Below are positions 1 to 7,550 of a DNA stretch of 61,162 nt, one piece after another (the first letter of the stretch is position 1; each line of letters begins with the position of its first letter). The translations under genes and the position numbers were made by a program. Source of the DNA: a virus (Duplodnaviria; Caudoviricetes); IMG/VR virus record IMGVR_UViG_3300047550_001096, positions 1 through 61,162 of that record; one strand, written 5' to 3'. The notes under the pieces were generated by a model, which searched no databases, was not told the origin of the DNA, and worked only from the letters and a program-made list of their open reading frames with translations.

Positions 1-1040
1 GTTTCTGCTTCACGATCTTTATTATGTATCATGTAGTAGTTATGATCCATTGAATAAGATAGAGCAGAATATTGGTTATGTAAACATTCTCCAAATTTAA
101 ATATATTTTCACCAACGGGGGTCATTGTTTTAAAACTAGTTCTTAGTTCAATAACATTGCCTCCTTTTTTCATATATAAACAATTAGCAATGCCTGAAGA
201 TGTTACAGATATTAAAGTTTTTACTTCTGTCATAAATTTTATTTGTTCTGCAATAGATTCAAAATCATTTTCTGGAATAACTATCTCAAAACCATTATCT
301 TTTAAAAACTCTTCAAGCATTGTTTCATTTACCATTCTTGGTTTCAATGGATCTTTAACTGGAAAATTAGAATGATCTGGATTTGATTGCCAATAGTTTA
401 TTACGTTTTTATCCTTTTCAGATCTTCCAATATACACTTTTCTAAATGGTTCAATGTCGCTTCCGTAATTATCTTGTATAAATTGATTAAAGTCAAGCAA
501 AGAATTTTCAGTTTGTTTAAGCTGAGAAGAATAATCTTGATATAAAATAAAGTTATTTACTAAAACATAATCATAATTATTTGAATCAATAATCTTATAA
601 TCAATGTTATTTAAATTAAAGAATTTTTCATAAAGATTAACAAAGCTGTTCATTCCATATCTATTTATATTAGCAATATCCAACACCAATTGAACATCTT
701 TATTTGACAATAAATGCTGAATTCTATAAAAACAAATAAAAGAATCAGTAACTACATGAAACATTCCTAAACCAACGGCCATAACTATTTTTTTCTTATC
801 TGATCTTATGTCTATTCCAACTTTGTTTGGTGGAATTTCGCAAGGTCGTTCACATTTATGTTCAGTTGGATTACTATAACCAGAGCAATTCCCAATTACT
901 TGATTGATATGATCATGTCTATAAAAATGTCCAAAGTCTTGAAACAATAAAGCTATATCTTGATCACTAAAATCTTTATCAGTTAAAGTTTCATATTTGT
1001 CATCAGGAAACTCTGTATATAGATCAGTGATCGTAAACAT
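1..1040 (-). CDS. Glycosyltransferase family 61 (DUF563-like) protein, 3' end runs off the window
   Basis: Not in the ORF track; hand-translated from ATG at 1040 (TAATG overlap with the upstream stop) and open to base 1. Contains RKVYIGR...RMVNETMLEEFLKDNGFEIVIPE...EQIKFMTEVKTLISVTSSGIANCLYM..GGNVIEL, the typical GT61 core pattern. Confidence 0.8.
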   Translation of the reverse strand, partial: MFTITDLYTEFPDDKYETLTDKDFSDQDIALLFQDFGHFYRHDHINQVIGNCSGYSNPTEHKCERPCEIPPNKVGIDIRSDKKKIVMAVGLGMFHVVTDSFICFYRIQHLLSNKDVQLVLDIANINRYGMNSFVNLYEKFFNLNNIDYKIIDSNNYDYVLVNNFILYQDYSSQLKQTENSLLDFNQFIQDNYGSDIEPFRKVYIGRSEKDKNVINYWQSNPDHSNFPVKDPLKPRMVNETMLEEFLKDNGFEIVIPENDFESIAEQIKFMTEVKTLISVTSSGIANCLYMKKGGNVIELRTSFKTMTPVGENIFKFGECLHNQYSALSYSMDHNYYMIHNKDREAE

Positions 1041-1291
1041 TAGTTATGACTTCCAACTAATCTATTTTCAATTAGACGATCTCTTTCATCAACTATTTCA
1101 AGCATAAAGGCCATCATTTTAGTATAAGAGTCTGGATTATTCATAATTTTTTCATAATGGTGTCCACAAAACATTAGTTCTCCTGTAGATCCTTTTACTA
1201 ATACATAGGCCTGAGCACTACACCTATCACATCTATCAACTGCTTTTAAAATATACTCTTTAGGACTACTTTCTTCAAGTGTAGTATTCAT
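1040..1291 (-). CDS. Small Cys/His (probable zinc-binding) protein of a type conserved in actinobacteria
   Basis: DRCDRCSAQAYV...GELMFCGHH motif; TATAAT 6 nt upstream of the ATG. Confidence 0.7.
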   Translation of the reverse strand: MNTTLEESSPKEYILKAVDRCDRCSAQAYVLVKGSTGELMFCGHHYEKIMNNPDSYTKMMAFMLEIVDERDRLIENRLVGSHN

Positions 1292-1304
1292 ATCTTAATT
1301 ATAT

Positions 1305-1478
1305 CTACTTTCTGTTGTCTGTTGAATAAAAACCACTACCCTTAAATTGTACACCAAATGATCCCCATTGTCTAATCATGTTTGTGTTACAACATGTTGG
1401 CTCTCTATCTTCTCCAAATCCCCTTTCAAATTCTATTTGTGTAGAACATATGCCACACTTATAGTCATATTTTGGCAT
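1305..1478 (-). CDS. FmdB-family zinc-ribbon protein (57 aa)
   Basis: Below the ORF-track cutoff; hand translation MPKYDYKCGICSTQIEFERGFGEDREPTCCNTNMIRQWGSFGVQFKGSGFYSTDNRK has the MPxYxYxCxxC start and FKGSGFYxTD end. Confidence 0.85.
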   Translation of the reverse strand: MPKYDYKCGICSTQIEFERGFGEDREPTCCNTNMIRQWGSFGVQFKGSGFYSTDNRK

Positions 1479-2077
1479 TATTTAACCTGTTGTGTTTTTC
1501 CAGCGCCACCTGCAGTTTTCTTTTTAGATGACTTTTTTTCATATGCTGTTTTTGCTGCATCTGCAGTTTTATATACAGCGCCATAGTTTGGTCTGCCCCA
1601 TCCAACAACTGCATTTACTAATCCTTTTCCATTCTTTTTCTCATATGCACGAGTTTTACGAAGAACCATTCCGCCATTTCTTTGATCACCTTTAGGACCA
1701 GATGTGTTTCCTTCAATTGTATCTATTGTTCCATCGCCATTATTTTTTACTACAATTCCTACATGGGATATTCTTGCTACCCCGTCATCTGGAAAATCAA
1801 AGTAAACTATGTCCCCTGGAATTGGATCATCTTTTCTGGCATCAAACCAACGCCCCATTTTTTTAAACGCCTGTGCACCAGCAACTGTAGATACAGTGTT
1901 TGGTATCTTTACTCCAGCCTGGTTAGCACACCACATAACAAAGCTACCACACCATGGTTGAAAATTTACGCCAGTAAACTTTCCATATTTTGTTTCATTA
2001 TCTTTAGGACCTTCAATAGTTCCTACTTCTTTTTTTGCAACTTCAATTAATAAAGCTGCAGTATTTTTTCCTGCCAT
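1478..2077 (-). CDS. CHAP-domain peptidoglycan hydrolase (endolysin)
   Basis: PWCGSFVMWC, PGDIVYF, SHVGIV and IEGNT motifs (catalytic Cys/His). Start moved to MAGK (2077) behind the RBS AAAGGAG. Confidence 0.85.
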   Translation of the reverse strand: MAGKNTAALLIEVAKKEVGTIEGPKDNETKYGKFTGVNFQPWCGSFVMWCANQAGVKIPNTVSTVAGAQAFKKMGRWFDARKDDPIPGDIVYFDFPDDGVARISHVGIVVKNNGDGTIDTIEGNTSGPKGDQRNGGMVLRKTRAYEKKNGKGLVNAVVGWGRPNYGAVYKTADAAKTAYEKKSSKKKTAGGAGKTQQVK

Positions 2078-2108
2078 AATATCTCCTTTAGACATATCAA
2101 TTATAGCA

Positions 2109-2384
2109 TTAAGCTGTCTTTTTGCTTAATCTAAAATGTGTTCTTATTCTATGGCAATTTGCACATACAACTTCACATTTAGCAATCTCTTTTAATATTG
2201 CTTTCCAAGAAAATCCATCATGAATCATTCTTGAAACATTATACTTTTTATCTTTTAAATGATCAAAATCTAAAACAATATGATTTTTAATTCCGCAGTC
2301 CACACATCCACTTGCCTCTTTAATTTCTCTAAGGCGTTTTTTATATTGCTGCTTAGTCTTTTGTGCTAATTCTTTTTCAGTCAT
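2109..2384 (-). CDS. HNH-family endonuclease
   Basis: CVDC...LDFDH...CEVVCANCHRIRT. Confidence 0.8.
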   Translation of the reverse strand: MTEKELAQKTKQQYKKRLREIKEASGCVDCGIKNHIVLDFDHLKDKKYNVSRMIHDGFSWKAILKEIAKCEVVCANCHRIRTHFRLSKKTA

Positions 2385-2413
2385 AGCAATTAATATTATA
2401 TCAAATAATTATT

Positions 2414-2495
2414 AAGCCCCGCATGGGAATTCAAGCACAATGGCCCGATTTATAAAATGGGTAACTAATCCATCCCAAGGCCCATGCGGGGACTT
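2414..2495 (-). ncRNA. Candidate structured small RNA (~80 nt), family unknown
   Basis: Perfect 11-bp terminal stem CCCCGCAUGGG/CCCAUGCGGGG with two internal hairpins. TATAAT at 2498-2503 lies just upstream. No ORF. Confidence 0.55.
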
Positions 2496-2508
2496 CTATT
2501 ATATCGCT

Positions 2509-2931
2509 TTACTTGATCTTAATAGTTTTAGGTTTCTTCTCTTCTGGAAGAATCCTATCTACATGAATGTGTAACATGCCATCTTTCATCTCAGCACCAG
2601 TTACTTCCATGTATTCTCCAAGAGCAAATGTACGAGTAAACTTACGAGTTGCAATACCCTTGTGGATAACTTTCTCTTCAGTTTCATCAGTTACAATTTC
2701 ACCCTTAACAATAAGAGTTCCATCTTCAACTTTAACCTCTACATCATCTTTAGAGAAACCAGCAACAGCAACTGATACACGATATGTATCATCATCAATT
2801 TTGACAATATCATAAGGTGGATATGATTGCTTTATTGCATGTGTGTGTATATTATTTAAACGCTCCAATTCACGATTGAAGCCAATAAAAAAAGGATCTT
2901 TGAAAAGATCCATAGCAAATGAACTTACCAT
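2509..2931 (-). CDS. Small heat-shock protein (Hsp20/IbpA-like)
   Basis: YPPYDI, VAVAGF, HKGIATRKFTRTF and AEMKDGML alpha-crystallin motifs. Start placed at MVSSF (2931) behind AAGGAG. Confidence 0.95.
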   Translation of the reverse strand: MVSSFAMDLFKDPFFIGFNRELERLNNIHTHAIKQSYPPYDIVKIDDDTYRVSVAVAGFSKDDVEVKVEDGTLIVKGEIVTDETEEKVIHKGIATRKFTRTFALGEYMEVTGAEMKDGMLHIHVDRILPEEKKPKTIKIK

Positions 2932-2998
2932 TTTATTCTCCTTTTCAGCGAGTTTCATTTATGTACCCCCTTTTGGCAGGTACATATTTATTATAGCA
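2932..2998 (-). promoter_or_regulatory. hsp20 promoter (TGCTATAAT) and ROSE-like 5' UTR
   Basis: Extended -10 at 2990-2998; hairpin UAUGUACC/GGUACAUA; CUC(G)CU-GAAA-AGGAG hairpin sequestering the SD. Confidence 0.65.
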
Positions 2999-3003
2999 TA
3001 TAG

Positions 3004-3204
3004 CTATGCAAGTTTCAACTTAACACATACCATGCATGGATCTCCACCATCTTCCCATGCCTGAGACTCTTCCTCAGTCATGTATGGGTCTCCATCATGG
3101 GTGCTGCAAAATGGCTCAGTGACCCAACCACGATCAATCCCATTTTGAAGCCATATTTCAAATTCTTTTACTTCTGTATCAATTCTAAATTCTTCATCAA
3201 ACAT
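3004..3204 (-). CDS. Hypothetical protein (Cys/His-containing)
   Basis: Fills the gap in gene order; TATAAT 6 nt upstream of the ATG; FCSTHDGDP...DPC. Confidence 0.75.
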   Translation of the reverse strand: MFDEEFRIDTEVKEFEIWLQNGIDRGWVTEPFCSTHDGDPYMTEEESQAWEDGGDPCMVCVKLKLA

Positions 3205-3219
3205 ATTAAAATTATACCT

Positions 3220-3741
3220 TTATTTGCTCAAAAAGTCAATAGGATACAAACAATGTGGGCTATATAAAATAGCAGCATCTAAAGCTGAAATCAGCCTACG
3301 CTTTGGATCTTTATAGTTTTGGGTAGCATGTAAAGAACCCATTGCGTAGGCCGATCCAGAACCTATGGCAGCAAAATTTGTGTCATAGGAAATCATTGTT
3401 AAATTGACTGATTCGTGTTCATACATTCTGCCTTTAACACATATCAATAATGTTAAATCAGAATCTTTTTCTGCTGGCATACCCCATTTTTCATAAAACT
3501 TTTTAATTTCTTCAAGGAATTTACCACGCATAAATTTATCAATATTGCCCTCTGGCTTTGGGGGTATAAAATTATTTTGAATTATCTGACCTTCAAGAGT
3601 TCCACAATATCCAAATAAATAGTCTCCAGATTTCCATATTTTTGGAATATCTGATTTCATTTGTTGTGATTCATCTACAACGGCTCTTTCACCAGCCATA
3701 TAAGCTTTACCGTCTTTTATTATTGCAGCAATACAAGTCAT
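3220..3741 (-). CDS. HslV/proteasome-beta-like Ntn-hydrolase
   Basis: N-terminal M-T-C-I-A (Thr nucleophile position), PKI, and AAIGSGSAYAMGSL. Confidence 0.75.
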   Translation of the reverse strand: MTCIAAIIKDGKAYMAGERAVVDESQQMKSDIPKIWKSGDYLFGYCGTLEGQIIQNNFIPPKPEGNIDKFMRGKFLEEIKKFYEKWGMPAEKDSDLTLLICVKGRMYEHESVNLTMISYDTNFAAIGSGSAYAMGSLHATQNYKDPKRRLISALDAAILYSPHCLYPIDFLSK

Positions 3742-7291: not shown

Positions 7292-7550
7292 ATTTTCCCT
7301 CTAGTCTATTTATTTCATCTTGAATATAAAACATAGCTTTTTTTAAATCTTCAATATGCTTATCTTCATTTTTTAAACCTGCTCTCCAAAGATATTTGAA
7401 AGCATTTCCAATATTAAAATTACGATGACGAGTAATCTGAATGCACTCTACACCAGATGGATCTGTAGTATAGTGCTCTGGATGATTTACCTGATCAACA
7501 CTAGTAACTAACTTTGTTGATTTATTCTTGTTCATCTTCATCCTCATCAA
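7284..7550 (-). CDS. DUF3310 (SaV-like) protein
   Basis: VNHPEHY...ECI...GNAFKYLWRAGLK...EDLKKAMFYI. Confidence 0.85.
   Translation of the reverse strand: MMRMKMNKNKSTKLVTSVDQVNHPEHYTTDPSGVECIQITRHRNFNIGNAFKYLWRAGLKNEDKHIEDLKKAMFYIQDEINRLEGKYE

What the first reader, a model, noticed from the sequence alone, without database searches (positions are those of the whole stretch)
2414..2503. Stand-alone ~80-nt structured RNA with its own promoter, between hsp20 and HNH
Seen on the minus strand: TATAAT, then AGAAGU-CCCCGCAUGGG-CCUU-GGGAUGG(AUUAGUUAC)CCAUUUU-AUAAA-UCGGGC(CAUUGU)GCUUGA-AUU-CCCAUGCGGGG-CUU. This gives a perfect GC-rich 11-bp closing stem and two inner hairpins, i.e. a three-way junction. 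The predicted TSS coincides with the start of the stem, and the next gene has a separate promoter. It is too large-looped for a terminator and has no tRNA, hammerhead or purine-riboswitch consensus that I can see. Inference: an undescribed phage sRNA (decoy, ribozyme or regulator).
Basis: partly seen in the sequence, partly recalled or inferred. Interest (0 to 1): 0.7.

Follow-up and report, generated by a model that had tools for sequence, protein, structure and literature searches.

The report
Conserved phage small RNA beside HNH
An undescribed, strongly conserved folded RNA gene of about 85 nucleotides in freshwater phages sits just upstream of a small HNH nuclease gene; its job is unknown, but its one invariant loop looks like a key loop of ribosomal RNA.

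Summary
On the minus strand (2414-2492) an 11-bp GC-rich stem encloses two hairpins. A covariance model finds one copy here and copies on many related freshwater viral contigs (89 distinct sequences). P1 pairs in every sequence, with compensatory double changes at 10 of 11 pairs; P2 and P3 are also supported. G-U pairs and model scores (105 against 25 bits) fix the strand. A -10-like hexamer lies 3-10 nt before the stem in 65 of 69 variants, and a U-rich tail follows it. No Rfam family, tRNA, cultured phage or prokaryote reference genome matches.

The 80 closest HNH relatives all carry the RNA, 78 directly upstream. The HNH gene has its own TATAAT 4-10 nt before the ATG and no Shine-Dalgarno, so it is probably leaderless. 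In a diverged clade, 20 of 24 copies lack an adjacent HNH, and HNH relatives in cultured actinophages sit in tRNA arrays.

Best reading: a stand-alone trans-acting phage sRNA with a homing-endonuclease neighbour. The invariant loop (UAGUUAC) resembles the 16S rRNA 790 loop, which is an IF3 contact; this is an untested lead. Expression is unverified because no RNA data were available.

The parts
2498..2503 (-). -10 promoter-like hexamer TATAAT of the RNA gene
   Evidence: A hexamer matching at least 5 of 6 positions lies 3-10 nt upstream of the 11-bp P1 in 65 of 69 distinct RNA variants. In the other 4 it lies 36-41 nt upstream, before an extra 5' hairpin. It is conserved even where the upstream gene is not hsp20.
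2413..2495 (-). Three-way-junction small RNA (covariance-model hit; the likely transcript runs from about 2492 to about 2403-2414)
   Evidence: R1 scores 104.8 bits, E 9e-25, on the minus strand and 24.7 bits on the plus strand. It is the only copy in the window.
2481..2491 (-). P1, 5' strand (CCCCGCAUGGG)
   Evidence: The helix is 100% paired in 89 distinct sequences, with compensatory double changes at 10 of 11 pairs.
2477..2480 (-). J1/2 (CCUU); CUU is nearly invariant
2470..2476 (-). P2, 5' strand (GGGAUGG)
   Evidence: P2 is 93.6% paired, with double changes at 5 of 7 pairs. It has three G-U pairs in the window.
2461..2469 (-). L2 loop AUUAGUUAC, the invariant core of the family
   Evidence: UAGUUAC is present in 89 of 89 distinct sequences and AUUAGUUAC in 63 of 89. 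With its closing pairs it is 12 of 13 identical to the 16S rRNA 790-loop hairpin read from L325.
2454..2460 (-). P2, 3' strand (CCAUUUU)
2449..2453 (-). J2/3 (AUAAA)
2431..2448 (-). P3 hairpin (UCGGGC-CAUUGU-GCUUGA)
   Evidence: P3 is 82% paired, with double changes at 3 of 6 pairs. The loop is variable apart from its 3' GU. One subgroup has a GCAA tetraloop instead.
2428..2430 (-). J3/1 (AUU)
2417..2427 (-). P1, 3' strand (CCCAUGCGGGG)
2403..2416 (-). U/A-rich tail after P1; with P1 it is a putative terminator (inferred)
   Evidence: In the 12 nt after P1 the mean T fraction is 0.54 and A+T is 0.82, over 69 variants. The simple terminator scan does not call it, because the enclosed 'loop' exceeds 8 nt.
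2395..2400 (-). Second -10 hexamer TATAAT, the promoter of the probably leaderless HNH mRNA
   Evidence: It lies 10 nt before the ATG. TATAAT lies 4-10 nt before the start codon in 64 of 65 variants with an HNH-like start. A Shine-Dalgarno-like motif is present in only 1 of 65.
2109..2384 (-). 91-aa HNH endonuclease gene (P0002), a neighbour and probably a free-standing homing endonuclease
   Evidence: PHROGs phrog_2255 and phrog_3106 at E 2e-22. tblastn finds genes annotated as HNH endonuclease in 181 phage records. 5 of 9 sampled relatives sit in tRNA arrays.
2509..2958 (-). hsp20 gene (P0001), the usual but not obligatory upstream neighbour
   Evidence: Pfam HSP20 at E 5.5e-21. 23 of 80 hsp20-relative loci carry the RNA.

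Best explanation
This is a genuine gene for a small structured RNA of about 80-90 nt, carried by a lineage of uncultured freshwater phages and not previously described.

Transcription (inferred): it starts at its own sigma-A-type -10 promoter, so that the 5' end lies 0-3 nt before P1. It probably ends at the U-rich tract that follows the 11-bp GC-rich closing helix. That helix therefore serves both as a stability clamp and as a terminator.

Architecture: P1 and P3 are scaffolds, because their sequences drift while their pairing is kept. The business end is the P2 hairpin with its invariant loop (UAGUUAC) and the adjoining J1/2.

Mode of action (inferred): the RNA acts in trans as an accessory, 'moron'-type gene product. 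Most likely it binds a protein or ribosome-associated factor as a decoy or mimic, rather than pairing with an mRNA.

The HNH gene: the 91-aa HNH gene 30 nt downstream is a separate, probably leaderless transcription unit. It belongs to a family of free-standing homing endonucleases that habitually settle next to small RNA genes (tRNAs in cultured actinophages). That habit would explain the tight linkage without requiring a functional partnership.

Shown: structure, strand, conservation, promoter-motif conservation, gene neighbourhoods. Inferred: transcript ends, termination, trans action, the binding partner.
For: Structure:
- The window sequence folds into the three-way junction.
- In 89 distinct sequences P1 is 100% paired with double changes at 10 of 11 pairs, P2 is 93.6% paired (5 of 7), and P3 is 82% paired (3 of 6).
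- 0 of 500 shuffles reach the observed covariation, and sliding the partners drops pairing to 29-54%.

Strand:
- The model scores 104.8 against 24.7 bits.
- There are many G-U pairs in P2 and P3.

Own promoter:
- A -10-like hexamer lies 3-10 nt before P1 in 65 of 69 variants. In the 4 variants with an extra 5' hairpin it sits before that hairpin.
- It is kept after hsp20, Dps-like, lysin, glutathione-peroxidase-like, membrane-protein and binding-protein genes.

End: a U/A-rich tail follows P1.

Separate HNH unit: TATAAT lies 4-10 nt before the start in 64 of 65 variants. An SD-like motif appears in 1 of 65.

Independence from HNH:
- In the diverged clade 20 of 24 RNA copies have no adjacent HNH.
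- L202 (RNA followed by the zinc-ribbon gene) and L183 (RNA, HNH, then the zinc-ribbon gene) look like HNH-minus and HNH-plus alleles of one locus.
- L257 and L277 have another gene between the RNA and HNH.
- Pairwise distances of RNA and HNH correlate weakly: Spearman 0.22, against 0.34 for RNA and hsp20, over 71 loci.

HNH family beside RNA genes:
- 5 of 9 sampled cultured-phage relatives lie in tRNA arrays. In Wofford, IchabodCrane and Bordeaux a tRNA ends 47-58 nt before the HNH start.
- The L038 paralogue is followed by three tRNAs.
- PMC5966550 (passages read) and PMC13096335 (abstract and section 10 read) report the same habit for HNH endonucleases and for SegB.

Functional core: UAGUUAC is present in 89 of 89 sequences. 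Its complement is not enriched in the window, with 2 matches against 2.7 expected, one of them the loop itself.
Against: - No transcript has been seen, so the ends, the abundance and even expression itself are inferred.
- The terminator is atypical. It is a branched structure with an interrupted U tract, and the simple scan did not call it.
- Linkage to HNH in the main clade is extreme: 80 of 80 closest HNH relatives carry the RNA, and 78 have it 22-33 nt upstream. The pair also recurs between different flanking genes. Both points fit a functional RNA-HNH unit as well.
- In L300, L313 and L315 there is no second promoter, and the only in-frame ATGs of the HNH frame lie inside the 3' strand of P1. 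There the RNA would be a cis leader.
- All three HNH-non-adjacent viruses that were checked still encode an HNH homologue elsewhere.
- Nothing identifies the binding partner.
Confidence: 0.5

Rival explanations
1. The RNA and the HNH nuclease form one functional unit. Either the RNA is a cis leader or regulator that keeps the nuclease gene silent (by termination, or by sequestering the start codon), or it is a trans partner of the minimal 91-aa HNH protein. As a partner it could be an inhibitor or antitoxin in the manner of type III toxin-antitoxin systems, or a specificity cofactor.
For: - All 80 of the closest HNH relatives carry the RNA, 78 of them 22-33 nt upstream.
- In an RNA-first sample 32 of 35 copies have HNH directly downstream.
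- The promoter-RNA-promoter-HNH block recurs between different flanking genes.
- In L300, L313 and L315 the ancestral ATG reads CTG, there is no second TATAAT, and the only in-frame ATGs lie in the 3' strand of P1.
- A 91-aa HNH has little room for a DNA-recognition domain (inference).
- Three RNA-bearing viruses without an adjacent HNH still encode a homologue elsewhere.
Against: - 20 of 24 copies in the diverged clade lack an adjacent HNH, and 13 of 24 precede other leaderless genes.
- HNH has its own promoter in 64 of 65 variants.
- RNA and HNH distances correlate weakly, at 0.22.
- HNH relatives elsewhere sit beside tRNAs, not beside this RNA.
- The RNA is single-copy, not a repeat array.
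- The loop is invariant, which is not what a variable guide would show.
Confidence: 0.2
2. It is only a transcription terminator or insulator. It would mark the 3' end of the hsp20 unit, or act as a barrier shielding the nuclease gene from upstream transcription, with no function as an RNA product.
For: - A GC-rich 11-bp stem is followed by a U/A-rich tract.
- It begins 17 nt after the hsp20 stop codon.
- Homing endonuclease genes in T-even phages are known to be tightly controlled by promoters and hairpins (established knowledge, recalled).
Against: - A terminator needs neither two inner hairpins kept by covariation nor a 7-nt loop invariant in 89 of 89 sequences.
- The -10 box sits between the upstream stop codon and the stem, and it follows the RNA into other contexts.
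- 57 of 80 hsp20 relatives do without it.
Confidence: 0.08
3. It is a ligand-sensing riboswitch of the purine-riboswitch-like three-way-junction type, or a self-cleaving ribozyme.
For: - The architecture (P1, two hairpins, short junctions) resembles purine-type aptamers.
- The 3' GU of L3 could pair with the AC of L2 (inference).
Against: - No Rfam riboswitch or ribozyme family matches at E<=10.
- No hammerhead core is present.
- The 11-bp GC-rich P1 would form regardless of a ligand, so it cannot act as a switch.
- The downstream gene has its own promoter and no leader.
- 6 copies (5 of the 24, plus L172) face a convergent gene.
Confidence: 0.04
4. It is a DNA-level element, such as a cruciform, an HNH recognition site or an attachment site, rather than an RNA.
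For: - The 11-bp arms are a perfect inverted repeat.
- It sits next to a nuclease gene.
Against: - P2 and P3 rely on G-U pairs that would be A-C mismatches on the other strand.
- The reverse strand scores 25 against 105 bits.
- No match exists in 185,579 reference prokaryote genomes that could serve as an attachment partner: the pattern gave 5 hits and none fits the model.
Confidence: 0.03

Closest known systems
tRNA genes and other small stable RNA genes in phage tRNA clusters flanked by free-standing homing endonucleases (SegB in T-even phages; HNH genes in actinophage and mycobacterial tRNA arrays)
   Same: - It is a small, highly structured, independently expressed RNA gene in an accessory region, with a homing-type endonuclease gene a few tens of nt away.
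- Relatives of this very HNH lie 47-58 nt downstream of tRNAs.
- The literature reports the same habit (PMC13096335, abstract and section 10 read; PMC5966550, passages read).
- T4 also carries two stable non-tRNA RNAs of unknown function in its tRNA cluster. This last point is recalled and was not checked here.
   Different: - It is not a tRNA or tmRNA.
- It has an 11-bp closing stem, three helices, a 9-nt loop and no CCA-type end.
- It is one gene, not an array.
16S rRNA helix 24 '790 loop'
   Same: - Both are hairpins with a 9-nt loop closed by G-G/C-C.
- The window reads GGAUUAGUUACCC. The 16S gene of L325 reads GGAUUAGAUACCC, so 12 of 13 positions are identical and in the same loop register.
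- The matching part is the invariant part of the RNA family.
   Different: - One loop position always differs: U in place of the A at the position equivalent to 792.
- The first two loop positions vary in the family.
- The stems below the two closing pairs are unrelated.
- At the sequence level alone, 30 of 300 shuffles of the RNA also give some 12-mer match with at most one mismatch to this 16S.
- No binding has been tested.
Purine-riboswitch-type three-way-junction aptamers (Rfam RF00167 and kin)
   Same: A closing P1 with two hairpins of 6-7 bp and short junctions.
   Different: - There is no model match at E<=10.
- There is no expression platform.
- P1 is too stable to switch.
- The next gene has its own promoter.
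Type III toxin-antitoxin loci (ToxI/ToxN type)
   Same: The order is promoter, structured RNA, terminator-like hairpin, nuclease gene.
   Different: - The RNA is a single unit, not tandem repeats.
- The protein is an HNH DNase-type fold, not a ToxN/AbiQ endoribonuclease.
- The nuclease has its own promoter.
- The RNA often occurs without the nuclease.
phi29 prohead (packaging) RNA
   Same: A phage-encoded RNA built on a three-way junction with its own promoter (recalled).
   Different: - There is no Rfam pRNA match.
- It is about half the size.
- It is located among accessory genes, 2.5 kb from the terminase gene.
- No loop-loop complementarity is conserved.
IscB/omega-RNA (HEARO) RNA-guided HNH nucleases
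   Same: A structured RNA gene next to a gene with an HNH domain.
   Different: - The protein is 91 aa with an HNH core only and no RuvC domain.
- The RNA is about 85 nt with no variable guide segment.
- No HEARO match was found.

Membership tests
Any Rfam 15 family | Covariance-model match at or near the family's gathering score | tested here: not met
   cmscan at E<=10 on 2000-3000 gave nothing that aligns to the three-way junction; the two rows that reach into it, SAM-III (15.7 bits, gathering 45, 2497-2579, the upstream flank only) and PhrS (12.1 bits, gathering 37, 2450-2610), lie far below gathering. At gathering score the whole window and 13 related loci gave only tRNAs, and those were in other loci.
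tRNA / tmRNA | Cloverleaf (or tRNA-like domain) recognised by ARAGORN or RF00005 | tested here: not met
   ARAGORN found 0 genes in the window. There was no RF00005 hit at E<=10.
Hammerhead and other known self-cleaving ribozymes | Conserved catalytic core (for the hammerhead, CUGANGA...GAAA around a three-way junction) or a model match | tested here: not met
   The junctions read CCUU, AUAAA and AUU. No ribozyme family matched at E<=10.
Purine riboswitch (RF00167) | Three-way junction with conserved J2/3 and J3/1 ligand pocket, L2-L3 kissing, and P1 coupled to an expression platform | tested here: not met
   The junction topology is present, but there is no model match. P1 is 11 GC-rich pairs, and the downstream gene has its own promoter.
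Intrinsic (factor-independent) terminator | GC-rich stem immediately followed by a U tract | tested here: inconclusive
   The stem requirement is met. The tail is U/A-rich but interrupted, with T fraction 0.54 over 12 nt. The consensus scan does not call it, because the enclosed region exceeds its loop limit. Function was not tested.
Independent sRNA gene | Own promoter and a discrete transcript | tested here: inconclusive
   The promoter motif is conserved in 65 of 69 variants, and in the other 4 it lies before the 5' hairpin. A transcript could not be tested, because no RNA run holds the sequence.
Conserved structured RNA (general criterion) | Compensatory base changes supporting each helix across diverged homologues | tested here: met
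   In 89 distinct sequences, 18 of 24 pairs show double changes, 93.8% of cells are paired, and 0 of 500 shuffles reach the observed score.
Type III toxin-antitoxin RNA antitoxin | Tandem repeats of the antitoxin unit upstream of an endoribonuclease toxin that processes them | tested here: not met
   There is one model hit in the window. The protein matches HNH endonuclease families, not ToxN or AbiQ.
IscB/HEARO omega-RNA | Long omega-RNA with a guide segment, next to a protein of about 400+ aa with RuvC and HNH domains | tested here: not met
   The protein is 91 aa. There is no HEARO hit, and the loop is invariant.
Free-standing HNH homing endonuclease (for the neighbouring gene) | HNH catalytic motif | tested here: met
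   PHROGs HNH families match at E 2e-22. tblastn hits genes annotated as HNH endonuclease. Pfam's HNH model gives only E 0.26.
Free-standing HNH homing endonuclease (for the neighbouring gene) | Presence/absence polymorphism between conserved flanks, and dispersed copies in phage genomes | tested here: met
   L202 (RNA followed by the zinc-ribbon gene) compares with L183 (RNA, HNH, then the zinc-ribbon gene). Up to 5 places per Streptomyces phage record match.
Free-standing HNH homing endonuclease (for the neighbouring gene) | Site-specific cleavage of HNH-less alleles | not testable with these tools
   This needs an enzyme assay.
16S rRNA 790-loop mimic | Same loop size, closing pairs and sequence as helix 24 | tested here: inconclusive
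   12 of 13 positions are identical, in register. One loop position always differs and two vary. The sequence-only chance level is about 0.1.
16S rRNA 790-loop mimic | Binding of a 790-loop ligand (IF3 C-domain, assembly factors, the 50S bridge B2b partner) | not testable with these tools
   Only the literature link is available. IF3C contacts the 790 loop, and a mutation at G791 lowers IF3 affinity 10-fold (PMC3130014, passages read).

The most novel reading that the evidence does not exclude
The RNA is a ribosomal-RNA mimic. A rigid three-way-junction scaffold displays a copy of the 16S rRNA helix-24 '790 loop', with the same 9-nt loop, the same G-G/C-C closure and 8 of 9 loop bases.

It would soak up a factor that reads that loop on the 30S subunit. 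The most attractive candidate is the C-terminal domain of IF3. Because excess IF3 suppresses leaderless mRNAs, titrating it would tilt host translation toward the phage's leaderless genes.

One such gene follows the RNA within about 30 nt in 64 of 65 main-clade variants and in 13 of 24 diverged copies.
Probability: 0.12. Interest if true: 0.9.

Novelty: new variant of a known kind. Interest (0 to 1): 0.68.

Why it matters
Very few phage-encoded non-tRNA small RNAs have a known structure, and almost none come from phages of uncultured freshwater bacteria.

This one is a clean, covariation-proven family (89 distinct sequences). It has a defined promoter, a defined functional core, no relative in Rfam and no counterpart in cellular reference genomes. 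It is therefore ready to become a new RNA family and a tractable experimental target.

Its near-obligate pairing with a minimal HNH nuclease in one clade, and its independence in another, give a natural experiment. The question is whether homing endonucleases merely parasitise RNA genes or co-opt them.

If the ribosomal-loop resemblance is functional, it would be the first viral RNA decoy of a translation-initiation factor site. It would also give a mechanism by which phages favour leaderless translation.

Tried and rejected
- **Expression data.** The look-up of sequencing runs listed 23 runs, none on record as RNA ('no RNA holder listed').
- **Cultured phages.** Megablast of 12 kb of the window against 50,697 phage records gave no match. 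blastn of the RNA plus HNH matched only inside the HNH coding part, in 7 records. R1 found nothing in three HNH loci of cultured actinophages.
- **Cellular genomes.** A two-gap pattern over 185,579 species genomes gave 5 hits in unrelated taxa, and none fits the model.
- **Antisense target.** The complement of L2 is not enriched in the window: 2 matches against 2.7 expected, one of them the loop itself. UAGUUAC gives 9 matches against 8.3 expected. The second same-strand copy at 7504 lies in a coding region.
- **RNA-HNH co-inheritance.** Distance correlations are weak in all directions, 0.22 to 0.34, so they decide little.
- **HNH structure.** No PDB sequence relative was found at E<=1. No fold prediction was made.
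- **Earlier findings of this scan.** Three look-ups returned nothing.
- **Literature.** No description of this RNA was found by searches for HNH, structured RNA and freshwater phage, for the loop sequence (the 10 of 174 hits listed were unrelated primer-type matches), for actinophage noncoding RNA, or for rRNA mimic, 790 loop and phage.
- **Small peptide.** The ATG in P1 of the window opens a 6-codon frame that is lost in relatives with other P1 sequences. This reading was rejected.
- **CRISPR-repeat mimicry of the CCCCGC/GCGGGG stem ends.** This was considered from memory and dropped, because the rest of P1 drifts freely.
Full report
**What is in the window.** The window is a 61,162-base IMG/VR virus record, estimated 54% complete. 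Related DNA is held by freshwater, lagoon and aquatic metagenome runs.

- TATAAT (2503-2498), then six bases.
- An 11-base arm, CCCCGCAUGGG (2491-2481).
- A hairpin GGGAUGG-AUUAGUUAC-CCAUUUU.
- A second hairpin UCGGGC-CAUUGU-GCUUGA.
- The perfect complement CCCAUGCGGGG (2427-2417).
- A U/A-rich tail.

A second TATAAT (2400-2395) lies 10 nt before the ATG of a 91-codon gene. PHROGs and tblastn identify that gene as an HNH endonuclease. Pfam's own HNH model is weak, at E 0.26.

The minimum-energy fold is the three-way junction (-35.4 kcal/mol, z -2.72). ARAGORN finds no tRNA or tmRNA in the window.

**Is it more than chance?** The single-sequence statistics are only suggestive. The relatives settle the question.
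- The hsp20 protein has at least 596 relatives on IMG/VR contigs. Of the best 80 loci, 23 carry the same element.
- From 21 sequences I built a covariance model, R1.
- R1 finds one copy in the window (104.8 bits), and the opposite strand scores 24.7 bits.
- R1 finds one copy on each positive contig.
- Pooled, there are 91 matches with 89 distinct sequences.

Pair counts over those 89 sequences:

| Helix | Cells paired | Pairs with double changes |
|---|---|---|
| P1 | 100% | 10 of 11 |
| P2 | 93.6% | 5 of 7 |
| P3 | 82% | 3 of 6 |

None of 500 column shuffles reaches the observed covariation. Sliding the partners by 1-3 columns drops pairing to 29-54%. This alignment was fitted to the model, which favours the structure. 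An independent MAFFT and RNAalifold run on 21 sequences gave the same three helices, with 9 covarying pairs. P2 and P3 use many G-U pairs, so only this strand can fold.

**Gene-like features.** The counts below are over 69 main-set variants.
- A hexamer matching TATAAT in at least 5 of 6 positions lies 3-10 nt before the 11-bp P1 in 65 of 69. The other four carry an extra 5' hairpin, and their hexamer sits 36-41 nt upstream, in front of that hairpin.
- The hexamer is kept where the upstream gene is not hsp20. Examples are a Dps-like gene, an amidase, a glutathione-peroxidase-like gene, a membrane protein and a binding protein.
- After P1 the next 12 nt are 54% T and 82% A+T.
- Of 65 variants with an HNH-type start, 64 have TATAAT 4-10 nt before the start codon. 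Only one has a Shine-Dalgarno-like motif.

The simplest reading is two transcription units: a short RNA that ends at its own closing helix, and a leaderless HNH mRNA. Both are inferences, because no RNA-seq run holding this sequence was available.

**Where it occurs.**
- It was found only on viral contigs.
- The window has no close relative among 50,697 deposited phage genomes. A sensitive blastn of RNA plus HNH matched only HNH coding sequence.
- A pattern scan of one genome for each of 185,579 prokaryote species gave five hits in unrelated taxa, and none fits the model.
- Rfam 15 has no matching family, either at E<=10 on the 1-kb region or at gathering score on the whole window and 13 related loci.
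- Four literature searches found no description. Supplementary files could not be read.

**Relation to the HNH gene.** The linkage is very tight in one clade and loose in another.

*Main clade.*
- Of the 80 closest HNH relatives (77-89% identity, from at least 579), all 80 have the RNA. In 78 it ends 22-33 nt before the start codon. In two (L257, L277) a further gene lies between them.
- In a sample collected by an RNA pattern, 32 of 35 copies had HNH directly downstream.

*Diverged clade.* A second pattern recovered a clade with a longer J1/2. There only 4 of 24 copies have an adjacent HNH. Thirteen of the 24 (the main-type L322 among them, which precedes HNH) precede a gene with a -10 hexamer 6-9 nt before its start, the other twelve being Dps-like and other genes. 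Five of the 24, and also L172, face a convergent gene.

*Further observations.*
- L202 (RNA followed by a zinc-ribbon gene) and L183 (RNA, HNH, then the zinc-ribbon gene) look like empty and occupied alleles.
- RNA and HNH sequence distances correlate weakly: 0.22, against 0.34 for RNA and hsp20, over 71 loci.
- The HNH protein's relatives in cultured actinophages are annotated as HNH endonucleases, occur in up to five places per genome, and sit inside tRNA arrays in 5 of 9 sampled cases. A tRNA ends 47-58 nt before the HNH start in three of them.
- A 49%-identical paralogue in a related freshwater contig is followed by three tRNAs.
- This habit is reported for HNH genes in mycobacterial tRNA arrays (PMC5966550, passages read) and for SegB (PMC13096335, abstract and section 10 read).

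I therefore read the HNH as a homing endonuclease that settles beside small RNA genes, and the RNA as a gene in its own right.

*Evidence against this reading.*
- The RNA-HNH block recurs between different flanks.
- In L300, L313 and L315 the second promoter is missing, the usual ATG reads CTG, and the only in-frame ATGs lie inside the 3' strand of P1. There the RNA would be a leader that hides the start codon.
- All three non-adjacent viruses that were checked still encode an HNH homologue elsewhere.

**The functional core.**
- P1 and P3 change sequence freely while keeping their pairing.
- The top of P2, its loop and J1/2 hardly change. UAGUUAC is present in 89 of 89 sequences, and AUUAGUUAC in 63 of 89. 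The closing pairs are GG with C(C/U) in 87 of 89.
- The complement of the loop is not enriched in the window, which argues against a simple antisense seed aimed at phage mRNAs.
- The same heptamer also closes the loop of a hairpin in a different RNA leader found in 6 of 44 hsp20-downstream leaders of related phages. It therefore looks like a reusable recognition module.

**A lead on what the loop mimics.** With its closing pairs the loop reads GGAUUAGUUACCC. The 16S rRNA gene fetched in L325 reads GGAUUAGAUACCC at helix 24, the '790 loop'. The numbering follows PMC4613259 (passages read).

The two are 12 of 13 identical. Both are 9-nt loops closed by G-G/C-C, and this is the only 12-mer match with at most one mismatch between the RNA and that 16S.

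Cautions:
- 30 of 300 shuffles of the RNA also give some such 12-mer hit, so sequence alone is worth about p 0.1.
- The added weight comes from the identical loop register and from the match falling on the family's invariant core. That weighting is my inference.
- One loop position always differs, and two vary.

The 790 loop is where the C-domain of IF3 sits, and a mutation at G791 lowers IF3 affinity tenfold (PMC3130014, passages read). Excess IF3 inhibits leaderless mRNAs (PMC9031893, passages read). The RNA is followed by a leaderless-type gene in most copies, and the window has 8 candidate leaderless starts against 1.5 in shuffles. This makes an IF3-site decoy a coherent but untested reading. 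I give it about 0.12.

| Reading | Odds |
|---|---|
| Stand-alone trans-acting RNA whose invariant hairpin binds a factor, with a homing endonuclease as neighbour | 0.5 |
| Functional RNA-HNH unit | 0.2 |
| Mere terminator or insulator | 0.08 |
| Riboswitch or ribozyme | 0.04 |
| DNA-level element | 0.03 |

The remainder is unassigned. The family is new as a family. In kind it is a variant of the small stable RNA genes that phages carry beside homing endonucleases.

Noticed in passing
L015:3448-3545 (+); also just after the hsp20 stop in L013, L025-L029, L033, L037, L053, L065, L072 and others (about positions 3430-3520 of those loci): A second, different conserved RNA motif occupies the same slot downstream of hsp20 in phages that lack the three-way junction. 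It follows a -10 box and looks like an H-type pseudoknot: stem 1 such as GAC/GUC, stem 2 UGAGCA/UGCUCA, covarying to UGGACA/UGUCCA and UGGGUA/UACCCA, with an A-rich linker AUAAAC. A Shine-Dalgarno sequence and a zinc-ribbon (FmdB-like) or CHAP lysin gene come next. There are 44 distinct leaders. No Rfam match was found at E<=10. It is a candidate new cis-regulatory RNA.
   Followed up: partly
L136 (oriented positions about 1110-1240), L300/L313/L315 (just upstream of the RNA): In two groups the pseudoknot motif lies 25-30 nt upstream of the three-way-junction RNA's promoter, with no ribosome-binding site or gene after it. Either the RNA(+HNH) block was inserted between that leader and its gene, or the pseudoknot RNA is not a translational leader.
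   Followed up: no
L039:3439-3481, L048, L192, L209, L249, L257, L268; L012 and L054 downstream of hsp20: An extra 5' hairpin (GUCGGGGGAGACAGCGAC, then AAAUACCUGG) precedes the three-way junction in some contigs and precedes the pseudoknot leader in others. This suggests modular shuffling of RNA elements.
   Followed up: no
L300:1983-1994 (oriented), L313, L315: This is an HNH variant without its own TATAAT. The usual ATG position reads CTG, and the only in-frame ATGs lie inside the 3' strand of P1. The start codon would therefore be sequestered by the RNA structure.
   Followed up: partly
L038:2170-2934: A 49%-identical HNH paralogue is followed directly by tRNA-Gly, tRNA-Glu and tRNA-Thr. 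It is preceded by a tRNA-like stretch that ARAGORN does not call, possibly a tRNA gene disrupted by the HNH insertion.
   Followed up: no
L257:666-1475 and L277:625-1479: A gene of about 270-285 aa, with thiol-peroxidase-like motifs judged by eye, is inserted between the RNA and the HNH gene. Its probable ATG follows a TATAAT directly after the RNA.
   Followed up: no
window 3204, 2384, 1291, 45818, 43124, 24326 (minus strand) and 38850, 49012 (plus strand): Eight ORF starts have a -10-like hexamer 5-10 nt upstream, so they are candidate leaderless genes. Shuffles give a mean of 1.5 and a maximum of 6. This is consistent with an actinobacterial-type host.
   Followed up: partly
window 1-3741 (minus strand): This is an accessory-gene cluster around the RNA. 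It holds an HslV-like peptidase (3223-3741, phrog_1040 E 5e-18), hsp20, HNH, a CHAP-domain lysin (1481-2095), a zinc-ribbon protein (1308-1478) and a DUF7455 protein (1043-1291). The CHAP ORF probably starts at the second ATG, after an AAGGAG.
   Followed up: no
L308: This contig matches the 23-nt J1/2-P2-L2 pattern exactly but has no R1 hit at E<=0.001. It may be a truncated or rearranged copy.
   Followed up: no
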